Position numbers and translations under genes: made by a program. A stretch of DNA of 64,000 nucleotides. Origin: Bacteroidota bacterium. Lineage in GTDB: Bacteria > Bacteroidota > Bacteroidia > NS11-12g > UBA955. The stretch spans positions 4,050-68,049 of the forward strand of contig VGFS01000004.1 of the NCBI GenBank assembly GCA_016868785.1. Reading direction: 5' to 3'. Below the pieces are notes generated by a model. It was given only the letters and a program-made list of their open reading frames with translations, had not been told where the DNA came from and made no database searches. Positions 50,640-57,475 of this stretch are shown here, piece by piece. Numbering within the stretch: position 1 is the first letter of the stretch; each line of letters opens with the position of its first letter.

Positions 50640-51299
50640 ATGCGGGTTTTGTTCATCGATAATTTAGACAGTTTTACATTCAACTTGGTGCATTGTTTGG
50701 AGGTGGGCGGAGCGCGGGTGGAGGTTTTGCGCAACGAGGGTGAGGATTGGCCTGGGTTGTCAGAAAAAATGGCAATGTGTGATGCATGGGCGGTCGGCCC
50801 GGGACCGGGCCGACCGCAAGACTACCCACATTTGCTGCGGGCCATCAAAACCTACTTGGGTAAAAAACCTTTGCTGGGGATTTGCCTCGGACACCAAGCC
50901 ATCGCCCAGGTTTGTTGTTGGGACATCGTTCATGCGCATTTTCCCATGCATGGCAAGCCCTCGCTGATAGAGCATAACGGACAAGGTCTGTTCGAAAACC
51001 TACCCCAAAACTTGCAGGTGGGTCGTTATCATTCTTTGGTTGTTACAGAAAAGCAAACCGTATCGACCATTGAAGCGACGATACCCCCAAAAACTGCGGA
51101 AAACAGTGCGGAGAGGCCCATTGCTTTACAGGTGGATGCGCGTTGCGAAGGCGAAGTCATGGCCTTGAGCAATTCCGCTTATGGGGTTTGGGCTGTGCAG
51201 TTTCACCCGGAGAGTGTGCTTACACCGGACGGACAATCAATGATCGAGAAATGGTTGGCGTTGGCGATGAATTTTCGCGCTACTGAGCGGCCTGTTTAA
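50640..51299 (+). CDS. Class I glutamine amidotransferase, anthranilate/aminodeoxychorismate synthase component II
   Basis: Motifs IDNLDSFTFNL, GPGPG, GICLGHQ, GRYHSL and QFHPES; trpG versus pabA cannot be resolved. Confidence 0.9.
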   Translation: MRVLFIDNLDSFTFNLVHCLEVGGARVEVLRNEGEDWPGLSEKMAMCDAWAVGPGPGRPQDYPHLLRAIKTYLGKKPLLGICLGHQAIAQVCCWDIVHAHFPMHGKPSLIEHNGQGLFENLPQNLQVGRYHSLVVTEKQTVSTIEATIPPKTAENSAERPIALQVDARCEGEVMALSNSAYGVWAVQFHPESVLTPDGQSMIEKWLALAMNFRATERPV

Positions 51300-53049
51300 C
51301 GGCTTCGGCAATGTCTTTGGGCGAATAGCCACACAAGAGATATAAATCTTCTTCGTTGTTTCCGTGTTCTATAAATGCTGCAGGGATGCCTAAGTGTAGG
51401 ACTTTACAATCTTTTCGATGCTCGATTTTCGCCGCGATTGACTGTCCCCATCCCCCTTGAATGCATCCATCTTCAACGGTGATGATTTGTTCATAGCCAA
51501 TTACATTGATGATGCCCTTTTCGATGTGGTCGGCCGTTTGGCTCACCATGGCACAATGGATATGATCGAAGGGTATGTTTGTGAGCAAAGAATGTGCTTC
51601 GAGGCAAAGATTGCTGGCACGGCCAGTGCTTATCAATAAGATTCGGGCTGAATCGGCGTGATGCAAACGTTGAGGTTTGAGCGCGTAATGTGGTTGATTT
51701 CTTGCGTTTTTATCCCAGGTTGACTCGGCGATGTTTCCCTTAGGGTATCGGATAGCCACCGGTTTTTTGGCATCGATGCCATATTGGAGAGCGGCAGCGA
51801 GCTCATTAGCGTTTCTGGGTGCAATCAGGGTTGTGTTGGGGATGCATAGTAAGAAGGCAATGTCGAAGGCTCCGTGATGGGTTGGGCCATCTTCGCCCAC
51901 CAGTCCAGCGCGGTCGATACACAGAATCACGGGTAAGTTTTGCAGGGCGATATCGTGAATGTATTGGTCGTATCCGCGTTGCAAAAACGACGAATAAATA
52001 TTCACTACTGGGATTAGGCCTTGGGTTGACATACCCGCAGCGAAGGTGAGTGCGTGTTGTTCTGCGATACCTACATCTAAAAAGCGATCAGGAAACTGAT
52101 TCATGGCGTGAATCATACCACAGGATGATGGCATGGCTGGCGTTATTCCGGCGAGATTAGGGTATTCATTGGCCAGCTCTAGCAGTAAATCTCCGAAAAC
52201 ATCTTGCCACTTTCTGGCTGGCTTGGTAGGTGCTTCGATTTTAACATACTTCGCGGCACTGTGCCATTTGGTTTGTTCTTTTTCAGCTGCGGGGTATCCT
52301 TTTCCTTTGATGGTTTTGATGTGTAATAACTTTGGACCGGGCTGCTGATAGAGATTTCCCAGGGCGGTAAGCAGTTCTGGCAGGTTGTGTCCATCTACAG
52401 GGCCTTGGTAGGCGAGTCCAAACCACTCAAACCACGTTTTGACGCCGGTGGGGTTTGTTTGCAATTGGGTGTTGAGTGCGCCGGTATTCGGATCTATACC
52501 CATTTGGTTGTCGTTGAGAATAACCAAAACATTCAGGTTCGACTCGAATAGGTTGTTGAGCGCCTCGTAGGAAAGCCCGGCCGTTAAGGCGCCATCGCCA
52601 ACCACGGCCACGAAGGTGGGCATAGGGGTTGGTTGGGCCGTTGTTTTTGCCAGGATGTTGTGGGCAGCGGCCATGCCCATGGCCGCGGATATCGCCGTAC
52701 TAGAGTGACCTGTGCCGAAGGCATCGTATTCACTTTCCTCTATTTTGGGAAATCCAGAAATGCCTTTGAATGATCGTATGCTCCGGAGTTGGTCTCGCCT
52801 GCCCGTGAGTACTTTGTGGGGATAGGCTTGATGACCAACGTCCCACACAATGGCGTCGTGGGGAAAGTTGAGTGTGTGGTGTAAGGCCACGGTGAGTTCG
52901 ATAACCCCCAAATTGGATGAAAAATGTCCGCCCGATTCCAACACAGACTGGGTTACAAAATCTCTGAGTTCGTCGCACAGCGTTTGTAGTTCATTGTGAG
53001 GCAATTTTTTGATTTCGTTTGGATTGGATATTTGAGGTAGGAGTTTCAA
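51280..53049 (-). CDS. dxs: 1-deoxy-D-xylulose-5-phosphate synthase, short form
   Basis: Motifs GGHFSSNLG, WDVGHQ, GHSSTAIS, GDGA...NDN, DVGIAEQH and DGPTHHG. Confidence 0.94.
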   Translation of the reverse strand: MKLLPQISNPNEIKKLPHNELQTLCDELRDFVTQSVLESGGHFSSNLGVIELTVALHHTLNFPHDAIVWDVGHQAYPHKVLTGRRDQLRSIRSFKGISGFPKIEESEYDAFGTGHSSTAISAAMGMAAAHNILAKTTAQPTPMPTFVAVVGDGALTAGLSYEALNNLFESNLNVLVILNDNQMGIDPNTGALNTQLQTNPTGVKTWFEWFGLAYQGPVDGHNLPELLTALGNLYQQPGPKLLHIKTIKGKGYPAAEKEQTKWHSAAKYVKIEAPTKPARKWQDVFGDLLLELANEYPNLAGITPAMPSSCGMIHAMNQFPDRFLDVGIAEQHALTFAAGMSTQGLIPVVNIYSSFLQRGYDQYIHDIALQNLPVILCIDRAGLVGEDGPTHHGAFDIAFLLCIPNTTLIAPRNANELAAALQYGIDAKKPVAIRYPKGNIAESTWDKNARNQPHYALKPQRLHHADSARILLISTGRASNLCLEAHSLLTNIPFDHIHCAMVSQTADHIEKGIINVIGYEQIITVEDGCIQGGWGQSIAAKIEHRKDCKVLHLGIPAAFIEHGNNEEDLYLLCGYSPKDIAEAVKQAAQ

Positions 53050-53071
53050 TTTTTTTGGGAGCGCTGAGACA

Positions 53072-53079
53072 CAAAAATA
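53072..53079 (-). promoter_or_regulatory. -7 element (TATTTTTG) for dxs
   Basis: Exact match 22 nt upstream of the TTG start. Confidence 0.55.
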
Positions 53080-53253
53080 GGGTGAATTGTTGAGTGAATG
53101 TGCTCGTGAATTTGTGGATGAACGTATTGGTTTTATCGATGAATTTAATAAGTAGTACTAAAATTCAAATAAAAGTTGTCATATTAATTGATAAAATCAA
53201 TAAAAATAGACGAAAAAATTGCAATTAAATTTGGATTGATATTCTCGCTTTTT

Positions 53254-53261
53254 GTAATTTT
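53254..53261 (+). promoter_or_regulatory. -7 element (TAATTTTG) for the AT-hook protein gene
   Basis: Exact match in the AT-rich region, followed by an inverted repeat at 53271-53296. Confidence 0.65.
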
Positions 53262-53316
53262 GCAACATTAAAACAAAATTTATTTACATTTTGTTTCACA
53301 CTGTATCACATTAAAC

Positions 53317-53943
53317 ATGGAAAATTTAGATCAAACTATCGTGTCGGCCCCCAAAAAAAGGGGCAGAAAGCCAGGTTCGAAGAACAAGGTAAAATCAAAA
53401 AGATCATCAAAAAAGGTTTCTTACTTGAGTGCCTTTTCTATTTTGGAGCAAGAAATTCATTCATTGTCTGAGGCTTTGAAAAAAGCCATGGTAAAAGCGG
53501 AGAAAGAAGTTGAGAAGTTGGAGAAAAAACAATCACGCGAATTAGAGAAGTTGAAAGTAAAGGCTGCCAAGTCGTTGGCTTTGTGGAAGGCTCGTGCAAA
53601 GGCAAACTTGAAAAAGGGAAGGGTAAGTACTGGAAAGCGCGGTCGTCCGGCTAAACCCAAGGCGGAAAAAGAGGCAGCTCGCAAAGGTAGACCCCCAAAA
53701 ACAGGTTATCGCAAGGGTGGAGGACGTAGAAAGGCGGGTGAGCTAACCAAGAAAAACATCATCTTGAATTATGTCAAAGAAATCAATCAACCCATTGCAT
53801 CGGGTGCTTTGATTGGTGCTTTGTATGAGCGTAGTGGAGAGCGCGAAAAAAAGCGTTTTTATCAGGGTATGTATACCACACTGACGCAGATGTACAAAGC
53901 TGGGTTGCTGAAAAAAGACGGCAGTATCGTTTCTCTGCCATAA
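53317..53943 (+). CDS. Lys/Arg-rich putative DNA-binding protein (AT-hook-like motifs, coiled coil, possible winged helix)
   Basis: KRGRKP, KRGRP and KGRPP motifs; heptad-like helical stretch; C-terminal IILNYVKE...LTQMYKAGLLKK. Confidence 0.8.
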   Translation: MENLDQTIVSAPKKRGRKPGSKNKVKSKRSSKKVSYLSAFSILEQEIHSLSEALKKAMVKAEKEVEKLEKKQSRELEKLKVKAAKSLALWKARAKANLKKGRVSTGKRGRPAKPKAEKEAARKGRPPKTGYRKGGGRRKAGELTKKNIILNYVKEINQPIASGALIGALYERSGEREKKRFYQGMYTTLTQMYKAGLLKKDGSIVSLP

Positions 53944-54828: not shown

Positions 54829-57384
54829 TTAATGTACCAGCACCAATCGTAGATTTTGTCTGCAAATGTCAGCATCTGGGTGGAAAGCTTCTACATGCAA
54901 AACATAATTTCCGGCGGGGAGCACATTTTTTATTTTCCATAAGGGTATGAGCAACTGTCCATCCTGTGAGACCTGTGTTGGACTGATTTCCAAGGGAATT
55001 ACGCTGCCTAACATAGAGAAGAGGGAGAGTTTCACCACGTAGCCGGCTTTGGGCAGTTGATGGAGCAAGGCAATGTATTCTTCGTGTTCACAGTGAACCA
55101 CCATTTTTTCTAGTTGAAATACTTTGGGCGGAGATTTTCGTTGTTGGGTACATTGACTGTTGGTTTCGCCGGGGGTGGAATTGCCCACGGTTGCGGTGGC
55201 GCTTACCCAATGCATGGCTTGGTTAGAAGGGGCATTGGGAGAGGTTTTTTCCAAGCTCACCCCTTTGGTTGAAGTCAATATGGGGGTGTGCATGGATTCA
55301 CGGTAGACCATTTCATCGATCAAGGTGCCCAGGGGGTGGGTAAGTTGGAGGGTTGCACCGGCGGCGGGCAGGTTGGGGAAGTTGGGTACTTGTTGGTGTC
55401 GGTAAAAGTAGCGGGGATTGTTTGCCAAAACGATGGGGTAAGGCTGTATGCTAAAACATCGAATTTCTCCGGGGTACAGGACAAAGGGGTGGTTGGTGAG
55501 GGTGGTGGTTTCTTCTGGTTGAAGGGCGTTGCCTATTTTCAGTTGTACACCTTGCAGTTGCTGGGGTTTTTGAGACGTATTTACAATTTCTACAAAATCG
55601 GTGAGGTGGTCAAGGGAGTTAAACATGACTTCATTGAACTGCAAATCGCCGGGTTGTGGAATGGATGCAGCGTAGCCCAGAGACAGTGTTTGCTGCGAGA
55701 TATTTTGTCCGTTACAATCGATTAAGCTGTCGATGGCTACGGTCAGAAGCTGTTGGTTTTGTAGCGGGGGTGAAATGTGGTATTTCCCGCCAGACAGTGG
55801 GGTAAACGCGTGAGCACTTCCCGCGGTTTTTGATTGCATCTTGGGCAGTTGTCCGTATACAGGATGGGTAAATTCGATGACCGCTGTGTCAGGAAAGGTG
55901 GCGGCCAGGTAGGCCACGGCAAATGGCAGATCCAAAGAAGGCTGTGTGGATTTGGAGGTGGGAAAGGGTTTGTAATTGCTTGGTGGTTGTGACGGGGTGC
56001 CACCCAGCGTGGTATTTGAATGCCATTTAAACAGGTCTACGCAGTAGGTTTGAGTATCGATGTGTTCCAAACTATACCCTCCGTCGTCGTAGCCAGGGTG
56101 TTGCATGAATTGTTGGTATTCAAAGCGATGCACCGTTTGGTTTTCTTTGTTGGTGAGGGTAAGTACTTCAGATTCAATGTTCAAATAGGGCAATTTGCAT
56201 CCCACAACATGAGGGATGTTTTTCATTTGAGGTGTGTCTGAATGGTGGCACAATGTTATGCGCTGCTGTGGTGCAAGGAGGATCTTTGGCAGGTTGGTGG
56301 TGGTATGCAGGTCAGACAGTGTAAGTTCGTCGAGCCACAGGGCATTTCGGGTATTGTTTTTCAGTTCGATGTATTGCACGGGTGGCAAAAATCCTCGGTT
56401 TGGCAGGGGGTCGGCCATGATTTCGGTGATGGTAATATCATGGGTGTTGATGGGTGTAGGACAATAGACAAAATCGCCTTTTTGTTGCAGGGGTTGTATG
56501 TTACTGGCGCTGTCTTTGACATTTTGGACATACACTGTTTGGTAGGTATTGCAGGGTTGGGGATTGAATTGTGCGAGGAGTGTTTTTTTATTGGGTTGGA
56601 GGTAGGAAAGGGCTTGTTGATGTTGGCAAATCAGCTGATTTTTATTTTCGATGACGATGGGTTCTGAAAATTGGATTTCGGCGGTTGAGGTTGATTTCCA
56701 CAACAGAGATTGGATGGTGGGCGGGGTTTTGTCGGGGCGCGGCGGGGTCACGGAGAAACTATTCACCCGGTGTTTTCCCGCCGCGCCGCTACCGGTTTGA
56801 ACGATACCCAAACCAGTGAATTTGTTCAGATAATTCAGGGTATCCACCGATCCGCAGAGGGTTTTGAATTCTTCCCAACTGCTGTCTTTGTAAAGGATTA
56901 AAAACTGATCCCGTTGTTTGATCCAACGCAAGGTGATGTTCGATTTGGTTTTGTTGAAATACCCCAATTCTGCCGAGCAGTCGATTCGATCTTTTCCTGC
57001 GCGACGTTCAATGAGCTTTAGGCCATCGTCTACATCGCCCAATCGGATCAACCAGCCATTTTGCAGCAGGCTATCGCAACGAAAAAACACATCGATGTAA
57101 TTGGCCGAACTTGGGTTAAAATCCAGAAAAAGTTGGGCTTGGAGCCATTGCAGGGAATCGGTACGACAGGCCATGTAGCAAAGCACCGTTTGTTTTTGGG
57201 TGCTTGCTGGGATGTTGCTCACGAAACCTTGGCCATTGGGTGAAATCTTGGTGGGGTCGCCCAGTGCCGTTTGGTTGTTTATGGCCGTGGAAAGGTGGCA
57301 TTGAGCCCATACCTCCATCTGTGTAAAAAGCAGCAGGGGAATCAGCATTGCGTATTTTTTTTGGTGGTTGACATTTTTTTTCAT
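54829..57384 (-). CDS. Large secreted protein with lamin-tail and Ig-like domains, possible T9SS C-terminal signal
   Basis: DITITEIMADPLP..QYIEL and DLQFNEVMFN...DFVEI (two LTDs); PDKTPPTI Ig start; GVSLEK motif. Confidence 0.8.
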   Translation of the reverse strand: MKKNVNHQKKYAMLIPLLLFTQMEVWAQCHLSTAINNQTALGDPTKISPNGQGFVSNIPASTQKQTVLCYMACRTDSLQWLQAQLFLDFNPSSANYIDVFFRCDSLLQNGWLIRLGDVDDGLKLIERRAGKDRIDCSAELGYFNKTKSNITLRWIKQRDQFLILYKDSSWEEFKTLCGSVDTLNYLNKFTGLGIVQTGSGAAGKHRVNSFSVTPPRPDKTPPTIQSLLWKSTSTAEIQFSEPIVIENKNQLICQHQQALSYLQPNKKTLLAQFNPQPCNTYQTVYVQNVKDSASNIQPLQQKGDFVYCPTPINTHDITITEIMADPLPNRGFLPPVQYIELKNNTRNALWLDELTLSDLHTTTNLPKILLAPQQRITLCHHSDTPQMKNIPHVVGCKLPYLNIESEVLTLTNKENQTVHRFEYQQFMQHPGYDDGGYSLEHIDTQTYCVDLFKWHSNTTLGGTPSQPPSNYKPFPTSKSTQPSLDLPFAVAYLAATFPDTAVIEFTHPVYGQLPKMQSKTAGSAHAFTPLSGGKYHISPPLQNQQLLTVAIDSLIDCNGQNISQQTLSLGYAASIPQPGDLQFNEVMFNSLDHLTDFVEIVNTSQKPQQLQGVQLKIGNALQPEETTTLTNHPFVLYPGEIRCFSIQPYPIVLANNPRYFYRHQQVPNFPNLPAAGATLQLTHPLGTLIDEMVYRESMHTPILTSTKGVSLEKTSPNAPSNQAMHWVSATATVGNSTPGETNSQCTQQRKSPPKVFQLEKMVVHCEHEEYIALLHQLPKAGYVVKLSLFSMLGSVIPLEISPTQVSQDGQLLIPLWKIKNVLPAGNYVLHVEAFHPDADICRQNLRLVLVH

Positions 57385-57475
57385 GGTGTTTTGGTACACC
57401 GAAATGGGCCATCACCACCAATGGAATTTTCTCCGGCGAGCCCCATTTTGCGATAATTACAAAAAGTTGTGGCGA

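What the first reader, a model, noticed from the sequence alone, without database searches (positions are those of the whole stretch)
53317..53943. Candidate new nucleoid-associated or xenogeneic silencer protein
The 208-aa protein is extremely K/R-rich. It has three AT-hook-like motifs (KRGRKP near 53356, KRGRP near 53635, KGRPP near 53683), a roughly 55-aa coiled-coil-like stretch, and a C-terminal domain that looks like a winged helix. H-NS and Lsr2 combine an oligomerisation domain with an AT-hook-like motif to silence AT-rich DNA, and HMGA uses multiple RGRP hooks. I know of no established Bacteroidota H-NS equivalent. This combination matches no family I recognise, so it could be a convergent silencer or chromosome organiser. 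Function is inferred.
Basis: partly seen in the sequence, partly recalled or inferred. Interest (0 to 1): 0.8.

Follow-up and report, generated by a model that had tools for sequence, protein, structure and literature searches.

The report
AT-hook, coiled-coil, winged-helix chromosome protein
This is a real, conserved gene found in one family of uncultured freshwater Bacteroidota; its very basic product has three AT-hooks, a long self-association helix and a winged helix, so it is most likely an undescribed chromosome-organising DNA binder, but nothing tests its function and a role as a silencer of foreign DNA is not supported.

Summary
The ORF at 53317-53943 (+) is real. Its product is 208 aa, 27% K+R, with pI 10.5.

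AlphaFold2 gives four parts: a disordered N-terminus with hook 1, one 68-residue amphipathic helix, a disordered basic linker with hooks 2 and 3, and a confident winged helix. No Pfam, NCBIfam or PDB sequence family matches.

In the genomes searched, the gene occurs in only one family of uncultured freshwater Bacteroidota. It is single-copy and always lies between dxs and prmC.

The most informative result is in that slot in sister lineages. There the hook and helix are kept, but the winged helix is replaced by histone-H1-like Lys/Ala/Pro repeats (at least two independent times), or the protein is a coiled coil plus six tandem AT-hooks. Interchangeable, non-specific DNA-binding modules suggest an architectural nucleoid protein of H-NS/Rok-like design rather than a specific regulator.

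It is not a sequence member of the Rok, H-NS or linker-histone families. The xenogeneic-silencer reading lacks support: the genome has almost no AT-rich islands. Function remains inferred.

The parts
53230..53262 (+). Candidate Bacteroidota-type promoter: TTTG (53230-53233), 21-nt spacer, TAATTTTG (53255-53262)
   Evidence: Read. Both elements (TTTGG ... TA[G/A]nTT[T/C]G) are conserved in the upstream regions of 16 orthologues. The sigma-70 consensus scan finds nothing, as expected for this phylum. The consensus itself is from my own knowledge of Bacteroides promoters.
53268..53302 (+). AU-rich inverted repeat in the predicted 5' leader (AAAACAAAAT...ATTTTGTTT)
   Evidence: RNAalifold on 8 orthologues: 13 pairs, 5 with compensatory changes, but only -2.1 kcal/mol. 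Weak; status uncertain.
53317..53943 (+). ORF encoding the 208-aa basic protein (stop included)
   Evidence: 108 homologues, with E-values down to 1e-115. Single copy in its genome.
53350..53388 (+). Hook 1, residues 12-24, PKKRGRKPGSKNK, in a disordered N-terminus
   Evidence: Ten of 13 positions are invariant in 31 sequences. pLDDT 47-63. Sub-threshold Pfam RBR PF17208 match in 20 of 31 members. The layout is like the plant AHL type-I hook, RGRP followed by GSKNK (PMC12430185). The same peptide is appended to unrelated bacterial proteins.
53419..53622 (+). Residues 35-102, a single long amphipathic helix and the presumed self-association (coiled-coil-like) module
   Evidence: AF2 helix with pLDDT about 94. 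Conserved hydrophobic positions have a period of 3.6-3.7. Only weak hits to coiled-coil families.
53632..53655 (+). Hook 2, residues 106-113, GKRGRPAK, a canonical AT-hook core
   Evidence: G109 R110 P111 are at least 90% conserved. Lies in a disordered linker.
53680..53700 (+). Hook 3, residues 122-128, RKGRPPK
   Evidence: G124 R125 P126 are at least 90% conserved.
53710..53733 (+). Residues 132-139, RKGGGRRK, a conserved Gly/Arg patch (RGG-like) just before the winged helix
   Evidence: G135 G136 R137 are at least 90% conserved. Its function is not known.
53749..53934 (+). Residues 145-206, winged-helix domain; the third helix carries the near-invariant QGIYTTLTQIYK
   Evidence: AF2 full-length and domain-only models. 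Foldseek best hits: Hop2 WH 2mh2 (E 6e-3, TMq 0.67), Zur, RosR, Rok DBD 5zuz (E 0.035), linker-histone domain 1yqa (TMq 0.78). A profile finds nothing in PDB sequences.

Best explanation
The gene encodes a lineage-specific nucleoid-associated (chromosome-architectural) protein.

Inferred mechanism:
- The central 68-residue amphipathic helix pairs or bundles with the same helix of other copies. This gives dimers or higher oligomers.
- Each subunit carries three flexible AT-hooks (one N-terminal, two in the basic linker) that insert into the narrow minor groove of A/T tracts.
- A C-terminal winged helix adds a fourth DNA contact.
- An oligomer with 8 or more DNA-binding elements on flexible tethers would coat, bend or bridge AT-rich DNA. 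In this 47% GC genome that is mainly intergenic and promoter DNA.
- The overall design is that of H-NS, Lsr2 and especially Rok: oligomerisation helix, flexible linker, DNA-binding domain. It is built from unrelated parts and uses true eukaryote-style AT-hooks.

Shown here: the gene, its conservation, the motifs, the predicted folds, its narrow vertical distribution, and the modular swaps.

Inferred, not shown: DNA binding, AT preference, oligomerisation, abundance, and any effect on transcription.
For: (1) Anatomy. Hooks are invariant or nearly so. The order is disordered hook, long helix, disordered basic linker, winged helix. Net charge is +37 and pI 10.5.

(2) The fold of the C-terminal domain matches only winged-helix domains, nearly all of them DNA-binding, including Rok and a linker-histone globular domain.

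(3) Natural domain swaps occur in the same prmC/X/dxs slot:
- Two congeners (G012, G018) keep hook 1, the helix and a GKRGRPAK hook, but end in about 14 KPKAVKAV repeats.
- Genera g16 and g17 end in AKKAAKP repeats and carry up to about 7 hooks. One of these tails scores E 1.9e-6 against Pfam HC2, the chlamydial H1-like nucleoprotein, which is below the cut-off.
- Genus g13 has only a coiled coil plus six tandem GRP hooks.
- The N-terminal halves group with different winged-helix-type relatives: G012 with P0015 at 45%, G137 with P0062 at 50%. The swap therefore happened at least twice.

(4) Precedent. In myxobacterial CarD, HMGA-type AT-hook and H1-like domains are reported to be functionally equivalent. 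I know this from the title of Garcia-Heras 2009, cited in PMC4374960.

(5) It behaves as a core gene. It is single-copy and present in 18 of 19 congeners. Synteny holds in all 58 loci, down to 43% identity. A Bacteroidota-type promoter is conserved. There are no matches in phage or plasmid collections.

(6) The genome has two HU genes but no H-NS, so an H-NS-like role is not filled by a known family.
Against: - No experiment or expression data is available.
- The third helix of the winged helix is nearly invariant and not very basic. That would also fit a specific DNA site or a protein partner.
- The helix periodicity is 3.6-3.7, not a classic heptad, and oligomerisation could not be modelled.
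- The family is absent from other genera of the same family and from 399 of 400 sampled Bacteroidota genomes. It is therefore dispensable for the phylum.
- AT-hook-like peptides can also bind RNA. The Pfam model that matches hook 1 is named 'RNA binding Region'.
Confidence: 0.55

Rival explanations
1. Xenogeneic silencer in the strict sense: it recognises horizontally acquired AT-rich DNA and represses it by forming filaments or bridges, as H-NS, MvaT, Lsr2 and Rok do.
For: It shares the oligomerisation domain, linker and DNA-binding domain layout common to all four silencer families (PMC8476142 and PMC6936261). RGR-type hooks are what Lsr2 and Bv3F use. The genome is 47% GC, so AT-rich DNA would stand out. 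H-NS is absent. One short relative (P0116) lies next to an ArdC anti-restriction gene on a small contig. This recalls plasmid-borne sRok and H-NS paralogues.
Against: Only 7 stretches of 1-2 kb fall below 37% GC in the 2.07-Mb genome, and 0.5% of 1-kb windows are below 38%. MAGs can lose islands, so this is not conclusive. A/T runs of at least 6 bp occur about 10 times per kb, so hooks would bind everywhere rather than selectively. Nothing links the gene to foreign DNA.
Confidence: 0.15
2. Sequence-specific transcription regulator: the winged helix reads a defined operator, for example in the shared dxs/X intergenic region. The helix dimerises it, and the hooks only add affinity.
For: The recognition helix QGIYTTLTQIYK is near-invariant. 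Linkage to dxs is fixed, across a conserved AT-rich divergent spacer. Many of the best Foldseek hits are specific regulators such as Zur/Fur, RosR and PadR/LmrR.
Against: The winged helix is replaced by low-complexity H1-like tails, or is absent, in five lineages in the same slot, while hooks and helix are kept. There is no sensor or ligand domain. The spacer palindrome varies in sequence between orthologues. Three conserved hooks are atypical for a specific regulator.
Confidence: 0.15
3. RNA-binding or condensate-forming basic protein, such as an RNA chaperone, a ribosome- or RNA-associated factor, or a polyphosphate partner, rather than a DNA organiser.
For: Hook 1 matches the Pfam 'RNA binding Region' model PF17208. 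The match is sub-threshold here and above threshold (38 bits against 24) in the five-hook protein of G034. There is a conserved RKGGGRRK Gly/Arg patch. More than a third of the chain is predicted to be disordered and basic.
Against: GRP-core hooks and winged helices are primarily DNA binders. The substitutes are H1/Hc2-like tails, which are typical of DNA condensers. There are no RNA-metabolism neighbours.
Confidence: 0.1

Closest known systems
Rok (Bacillus subtilis xenogeneic silencer; Pfam PF26513 N-terminal + PF23159 WH_Rok; PDB 5ZUX/5ZUZ)
   Same: Size is about 190-210 aa. The order is an N-terminal helical oligomerisation region, a flexible linker, then a C-terminal monomer-type winged helix (PMC6212790). 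A basic R/G/P/S/K stretch (RRGTARPGSK) lies directly before the winged helix. The Rok DBD is among the Foldseek hits (E 0.035, TMq 0.57). hhalign places helices 1-2 in the same register.
   Different: There is no significant sequence relation: hhalign probability is 6.6-7.6%, and Pfam WH_Rok reaches E 0.022 in 2 of 31 members. The N154/T156/R174 minor-groove residues of Rok are not conserved in the hhalign alignment, or by eye for the wing Arg, which lies outside it. Rok has a neutral Q-rich linker and no AT-hooks (PMC6936261). This protein has a basic linker with two GRP hooks, plus an N-terminal hook. The two occur in different phyla.
H-NS / MvaT / Lsr2 DNA-bridging proteins
   Same: The design logic of oligomerisation domain, basic flexible linker and minor-groove-reading element is shared. 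Lsr2 and Bv3F use an RGR 'AT-hook-like' loop (PMC8476142).
   Different: There is no homology. Pfam Histone_HNS is absent from the genome. Here the hooks are free, disordered, canonical GRP hooks in three copies, not one loop inside a folded domain. There is an extra winged helix.
HMGA proteins and the HMGA-like C-terminal domain of Myxococcus CarD
   Same: Both have multiple RGRP-type hooks in an intrinsically disordered basic region (PMC4374960). In both, H1-like Lys/Ala/Pro domains substitute in relatives.
   Different: HMGA and CarD have an acidic segment, and CarD has an RNAP-binding N-terminal domain. Here there is a coiled-coil-like helix and a winged helix, no acidic tail and no CarD_TRCF domain.
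Linker histone H1/H5 and bacterial H1-like proteins (chlamydial Hc1/Hc2, AlgP-type tails)
   Same: Both combine a winged-helix globular fold with lysine-rich disordered regions. A linker-histone globular domain (1yqa) gives the highest TM-score normalised to the query (0.78). Sister-lineage variants carry KPKAVKAV or AKKAAKP tails, one with a sub-threshold Pfam HC2 match.
   Different: There is no Pfam Linker_histone or Hc1 hit. In this family the winged helix and the H1-like tail are alternatives, not combined. The long central helix and AT-hooks are not H1 features.
Plant AHL (AT-hook motif nuclear-localised) type-I hook
   Same: Hook 1 (RGRKPGSKNK, or KGRPVGSKNRK in genus g3) has the same layout as the AHL type-I hook, an RGRP core followed by GSKNK (PMC12430185).
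   Different: There is no PPC/DUF296 domain. In most members a Lys sits between RGR and P.

Membership tests
AT-hook motif (Pfam PF02178 / SMART AT_hook) | Gly-Arg-Pro core flanked by Lys/Arg in a disordered segment | tested here: met
   Hooks 2 (KRGRPAK) and 3 (KGRPPK) have the GRP core, at least 90% conserved, in regions with pLDDT 55-58. Hook 1 is RGRKPG, with the core interrupted by Lys. The orthologue in genus g3 has KGRPVG.
AT-hook motif (Pfam PF02178 / SMART AT_hook) | Score above the Pfam gathering threshold | tested here: not met
   Four of 31 members hit, with best E 0.02. The six-hook G092 protein scores 15.2 bits against a cut-off of 17.4. The model is only 13 positions long, so this test is weak.
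AT-hook motif (Pfam PF02178 / SMART AT_hook) | [quoted passage not shown] | not testable with these tools
   Needs EMSA or footprinting with netropsin competition.
Rok family (PF26513 + PF23159) | Sequence membership of the winged helix (WH_Rok) and the N-terminal domain | tested here: not met
   WH_Rok reaches E 0.022 in 2 of 31 members, below the 27.6-bit cut-off. hhalign of A1 against a 12-sequence Rok alignment gives probability 6.6%. A2 against the Rok CTD gives 7.6%. The Rok CTD sequence was validated against PDB 5zuz.
Rok family (PF26513 + PF23159) | N154-T156-R174 minor-groove-reading residues (PMC8476142) | tested here: not met
   In the hhalign register, Rok's PNMTTF aligns with R--EKKRF of this family. 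The wing Arg lies outside that alignment. By eye, no conserved Arg sits in the corresponding KKDG turn.
Rok family (PF26513 + PF23159) | Architecture: N-terminal oligomerisation helix, linker, C-terminal winged helix | tested here: met
   AF2 model compared with the Rok description. This is a resemblance of design only.
H-NS-like DNA-bridging proteins (functional class) | Higher-order oligomerisation through the N-terminal or central helical domain | tested here: inconclusive
   There is a conserved hydrophobic seam with a period of 3.6-3.7 over 63 residues. No multimer prediction or experiment was possible.
H-NS-like DNA-bridging proteins (functional class) | Preferential binding and silencing of AT-rich or foreign DNA | not testable with these tools
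   Context only: the genome has few AT-rich islands.
H-NS (Pfam PF00816) | Histone_HNS C-terminal domain | tested here: not met
   No hit in the protein or anywhere in the genome. The E. coli control was positive.
Linker histone H1/H5 (Pfam PF00538) | Sequence match to the globular-domain family | tested here: not met
   No Pfam hit at E up to 10 for the window protein, and none among the 25 families listed for the 31 members at E up to 1. Fold resemblance only (1yqa, TMq 0.78, E 0.07).
Chlamydial Hc1/Hc2 H1-like proteins (PF07432/PF07382) | Lys/Ala/Pro-rich repeat tail | tested here: not met
   The window protein has no such tail. Only the sister variants do: L080, and L084-L087, of which L086 scores HC2 at 28.6 bits against a cut-off of 40.
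HU/IHF (PF00216) | Bac_DNA_binding fold | tested here: not met
   No hit in this protein. The genome has two separate HU genes.

The most novel reading that the evidence does not exclude
The dxs-prmC slot of this freshwater Bacteroidota family encodes the founding member of a fifth, independently evolved family of H-NS/Rok-type bridging chromatin proteins. It would be the first for the phylum. It uses genuine eukaryote-style AT-hooks on an oligomerising helix. Its terminal DNA-binding module is evolutionarily interchangeable between a winged helix, an H1-like tail and an AT-hook array. That makes it a natural experiment showing these modules to be functionally equivalent in bacterial chromatin.
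Probability: 0.3. Interest if true: 0.8.

Novelty: new variant of a known kind. Interest (0 to 1): 0.6.

Why it matters
No H-NS-like architectural or silencing protein is established for Bacteroidota. Known examples come from four unrelated families in Proteobacteria, Actinobacteria and Bacillus. This family would add an independently built fifth solution.

It also offers a clean comparative system. One gene slot and one hook-plus-helix scaffold carry three alternative DNA-binding ends. That allows a direct question: what does a bacterial chromatin protein minimally need?

It shows that the eukaryote-type AT-hook peptide PKKRGRKPGSKNK is a reusable bacterial module. The same peptide is appended to an AraC-type regulator, a glycogen synthase and other proteins.

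The hosts are uncultured bacteria, mostly freshwater, with 2-Mb genomes. The practical route is therefore heterologous expression in laboratory strains.

Tried and rejected
- **Known-family searches of the window protein.** Pfam, NCBIfam and PDB sequence searches gave only sub-threshold coiled-coil noise (ATP-synt_B, TolA, TraB).
- **Profile of the winged helix against PDB sequences.** Nothing meaningful.
- **Rok membership.** Pursued in earnest: the sequence was validated against PDB, a family alignment was built, and hhalign was run twice. Rejected.
- **Relation of the winged-helix-like domain of the G034 five-hook protein to this winged helix.** hhalign probability 5.9%, so no call.
- **Remnant of the winged-helix coding sequence downstream of the tail-type gene in G012.** None found, so the swap is not a simple frameshift.
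- **Mobile-element origin.** Rejected for the main family. There were no phage or plasmid matches and synteny is strict.
- **Single-alpha-helix (E/K salt-bridge spacer) reading of residues 35-102.** Considered, but less likely, because a conserved hydrophobic seam exists.
- **5' leader hairpin.** Too weak to claim.
- **Literature.** Searches for a described Bacteroidota AT-hook or nucleoid protein, and for PF17208, found nothing. PMC2726384 is not held.
- **Taxon name.** Related records are all MAGs, mostly from lakes, rivers and ponds, labelled Bacteroidota, Bacteroidia or Flavobacteriales, with several obvious mislabels.

Full report
**Observation**

The ORF at 53317-53943 (+) is present, with an ATG start and 208 codons. 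The product has 40 Lys and 16 Arg (26.9%), 19 acidic residues, pI 10.5 and a mass of 23.2 kDa.
- K14-RGRKP at 53356.
- K107-RGRP at 53635.
- K123-GRPP at 53683.

This is not a chance feature of a basic ORF. Of 8354 ORFs of at least 60 aa in the 2.07-Mb genome, this one has five overlapping hook-pattern matches. No other ORF has more than two.

**Conservation**

A word-indexed search found 108 homologues, none named beyond 'hypothetical protein'. An exhaustive HMMER scan of 1.8 billion cluster representatives found only 17, so the family is small. In a 31-sequence alignment (43-86% identity for the 29 full-length homologues):
- PK-RGRK-G-KNK of hook 1 is invariant.
- GRP of hooks 2 and 3, a GGGR patch and much of the C-terminal domain are at least 90% conserved. 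This includes QGxYTTLTQxY.

No Pfam, NCBIfam or PDB sequence family matches. When all members are scanned, 20 of 31 give a sub-threshold match of hook 1 to Pfam PF17208 'RNA binding Region'. A few give weak hits to TBPIP/Hop2 WH, WH_Rok and AT_hook.

**Structure**

AlphaFold2 on the alignment (mean pLDDT 78.7) gives four parts:
- a disordered N-terminus, residues 1-34, carrying hook 1;
- one uninterrupted helix, residues 35-102, pLDDT about 94;
- a disordered basic linker, residues 103-144, carrying hooks 2 and 3;
- a compact helix-helix-helix-strand-strand domain, residues 145-206.

Folded alone, that domain has pLDDT 91 and pTM 0.75. Foldseek against the PDB returns only winged helices:
- Hop2 (E 6e-3);
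- Zur/Fur, RosR and PadR/LmrR;
- archaeal Rpa2-WH and Z-alpha;
- the Rok DNA-binding domain (E 0.035);
- a linker-histone globular domain (TMq 0.78).

No hit is below E 0.001. The fold class is therefore secure, but no subfamily can be assigned.

The long helix has a conserved hydrophobic seam whose periodicity peaks at 3.6-3.7 residues. That fits a self-associating amphipathic helix (coiled coil or straight bundle) better than a charged single alpha-helix spacer. Oligomerisation itself is inferred.

**Distribution and context**

The genome is 2.07 Mb in 79 contigs, 100% complete and 47.1% GC, and the gene is single-copy.
- 18 of 19 species of the same genus have the gene.
- Within the order (191 species genomes), all hits fall in the window's own family, in 8 of 28 genera.
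- In an even sample of 400 Bacteroidota genomes (179 genera), the winged-helix profile finds only one marginal hit outside the window's genome.
- Public records with the gene are all metagenome-assembled genomes, mostly from lakes, rivers and ponds.
- In every one of 58 loci, down to 43% protein identity, the gene lies between dxs (divergent) and prmC (convergent). The wider order thiolase-tsaB-trpG-dxs-X-prmC-LTD-rfaE2 is kept in most full-length loci.
- There are no matches in phage or plasmid collections.

It is therefore a vertically inherited core gene of one clade.

Upstream lies a 267-bp spacer of about 27% GC. It contains TTTG, a 21-nt spacer and TAATTTTG at 53230-53262. This matches the Bacteroidota promoter consensus and is conserved in 16 orthologous spacers.

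**The key comparative result**

In the same slot, sister lineages carry variants.
- (a) Two species of the same genus (G012, G018) keep hook 1, the helix and a GKRGRPAK hook. They end in about 14 KPKAVKAV repeats instead of the winged helix. No remnant of the winged-helix coding sequence lies downstream.
- (b) Genera g16 and g17 have 225-308-aa proteins with hook 1, the helix, up to about 7 hooks and long AKKAAKP/KKAAAP tails. One of these tails scores E 1.9e-6 against chlamydial HC2, which is below the cut-off.
- (c) Genus g3 keeps a canonical KGRPVGSKNRK hook and the winged helix, with a different middle.
- (d) Genus g13 has a 139-aa protein made of a coiled coil plus six tandem GPKRPVGRPRIHP hooks.

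The N-terminal halves of the tail-type proteins are closest to different winged-helix-type proteins: G012 to P0015 at 45%, and G137 to P0062 at 50%. The winged helix was therefore replaced at least twice.

What stays constant is 'hooks plus a self-association helix'. What varies is a set of modules whose common denominator is sequence-non-specific DNA binding. This is the strongest argument for an architectural nucleoid protein and against a specific regulator.

It echoes myxobacterial CarD, where HMGA-type and H1-like domains are reported to be functionally equivalent. That reference is cited in PMC4374960. I could not open the primary paper.

**Comparison with known families**

All four xenogeneic-silencer families share an oligomerisation domain, a linker and a DNA-binding domain (PMC8476142, PMC6936261). 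Rok is the closest in design: an N-terminal oligomerising helix region and a C-terminal winged helix (PMC6212790).

I validated the Rok C-terminal sequence against PDB 5zuz and built a Rok family alignment. I then ran profile-profile comparisons, which gave probabilities of 6.6-7.6%. Rok's N-T-R DNA-reading residues are not conserved here. Rok also has a neutral Q-linker and no hooks.

The protein therefore works like a Rok/H-NS-type protein on paper, but it is not a member of those families. H-NS is absent from the genome, and two HU genes are present. Hook 1 has the layout of the plant AHL type-I hook, RGRP followed by GSKNK (PMC12430185). The identical peptide occurs as a terminal tag on unrelated bacterial proteins.

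**Xenogeneic silencing**

I see no support for this beyond the design. The genome has only seven stretches of 1-2 kb below 37% GC. A/T runs of at least 6 bp occur about 10 times per kb. Hooks would therefore decorate intergenic DNA generally. MAG assemblies can lose islands, so this is weak negative evidence.

**Limits**

No binding, oligomerisation or expression data could be obtained. The near-invariant third helix of the winged helix could reflect a specific DNA site or a protein partner. RNA binding by the basic segments cannot be excluded.

**Earlier notes of this scan**

- Two first readers flagged distant relatives in other genomes (e1-1414845, e1-4743564).
- A follow-up described a Planctomycete family with a coiled coil, AT-hooks, a Rok-like winged helix and an H1-like tail (e1-2874320).

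The design may recur across phyla. I did not test those claims.

**Verdict**

This is a new, narrowly distributed family. Its most likely role is an H-NS/Rok-like architectural DNA binder that uses true AT-hooks (confidence about 0.55). The silencer reading is unproven (about 0.15). Novelty: a new variant of a known kind. Interest: 0.6.

Noticed in passing
window 53050-53316: The dxs/X divergent spacer is about 27% GC against 47% for the genome. It holds a conserved Bacteroidota-type promoter (TTTG, 21 nt, TAATTTTG at 53230-53262). A block conserved across orthologues (CAAAAATAGG...TTGAGTGAA) lies just upstream, inside the first codons of dxs at about 53021-53047, and may belong to the dxs side. 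The predicted leader carries an AU-rich inverted repeat with a few compensatory changes.
   Followed up: partly
L080 1152-1919 (-) and L081 1493-2080 (+) (genomes G012, G018, same genus): The orthologous slot encodes a variant whose winged helix is replaced by about 14 KPKAVKAV repeats. In G012, the 430 bp between this gene and prmC holds a small hydrophobic ORF of about 57 aa that is absent from the window.
   Followed up: partly
L088 950-1369 (-) (genome G092, genus g13): A 139-aa protein between prmC and dxs consists only of an N-terminal coiled coil and six tandem GPKRPVGRPRIHPxKT AT-hooks. This is a minimal 'oligomerising HMGA'.
   Followed up: no
L083 810-1976 (-) (genome G034, other family of the order): A 388-aa protein has an N-terminal helix, a winged-helix-like segment and five tandem APKKRGRKPGSKNVKT hooks. 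It scores above the Pfam cut-off for PF17208 'RNA binding Region' (38 bits). This suggests the Pfam model partly captures this AT-hook type.
   Followed up: partly
L076/L077/L078 5581-6069 (Prevotella and others), L075 1642-3717, L079 5578-6249: The exact peptide PKKRGRKPGSKNK is appended to unrelated proteins: the C-terminus of an AraC-type HTH protein, the end of a glycogen synthase with a long basic tail, and twice in a Eubacteriales repeat protein.
   Followed up: no
L101 1645-2124 (protein P0116) and L100 1247-1735 (P0119): Short relatives of 155-162 aa have a coiled coil, a basic linker and the same winged helix, but no N-terminal hook. They lie outside the dxs-prmC slot. One is next to an ArdC anti-restriction/MPTase gene, hinting at a copy carried on a mobile element.
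   Followed up: no
window 51280-51299: The convergent genes trpG-like (50640-51299, +) and dxs (51280-53049, -) overlap by 20 nt at their 3' ends.
   Followed up: no
window 54829-57399 (-): An 856-aa secreted-looking protein (called LTD in my synteny table) is conserved downstream of prmC in nearly all loci, but diverges quickly, at 23-70% identity.
   Followed up: no
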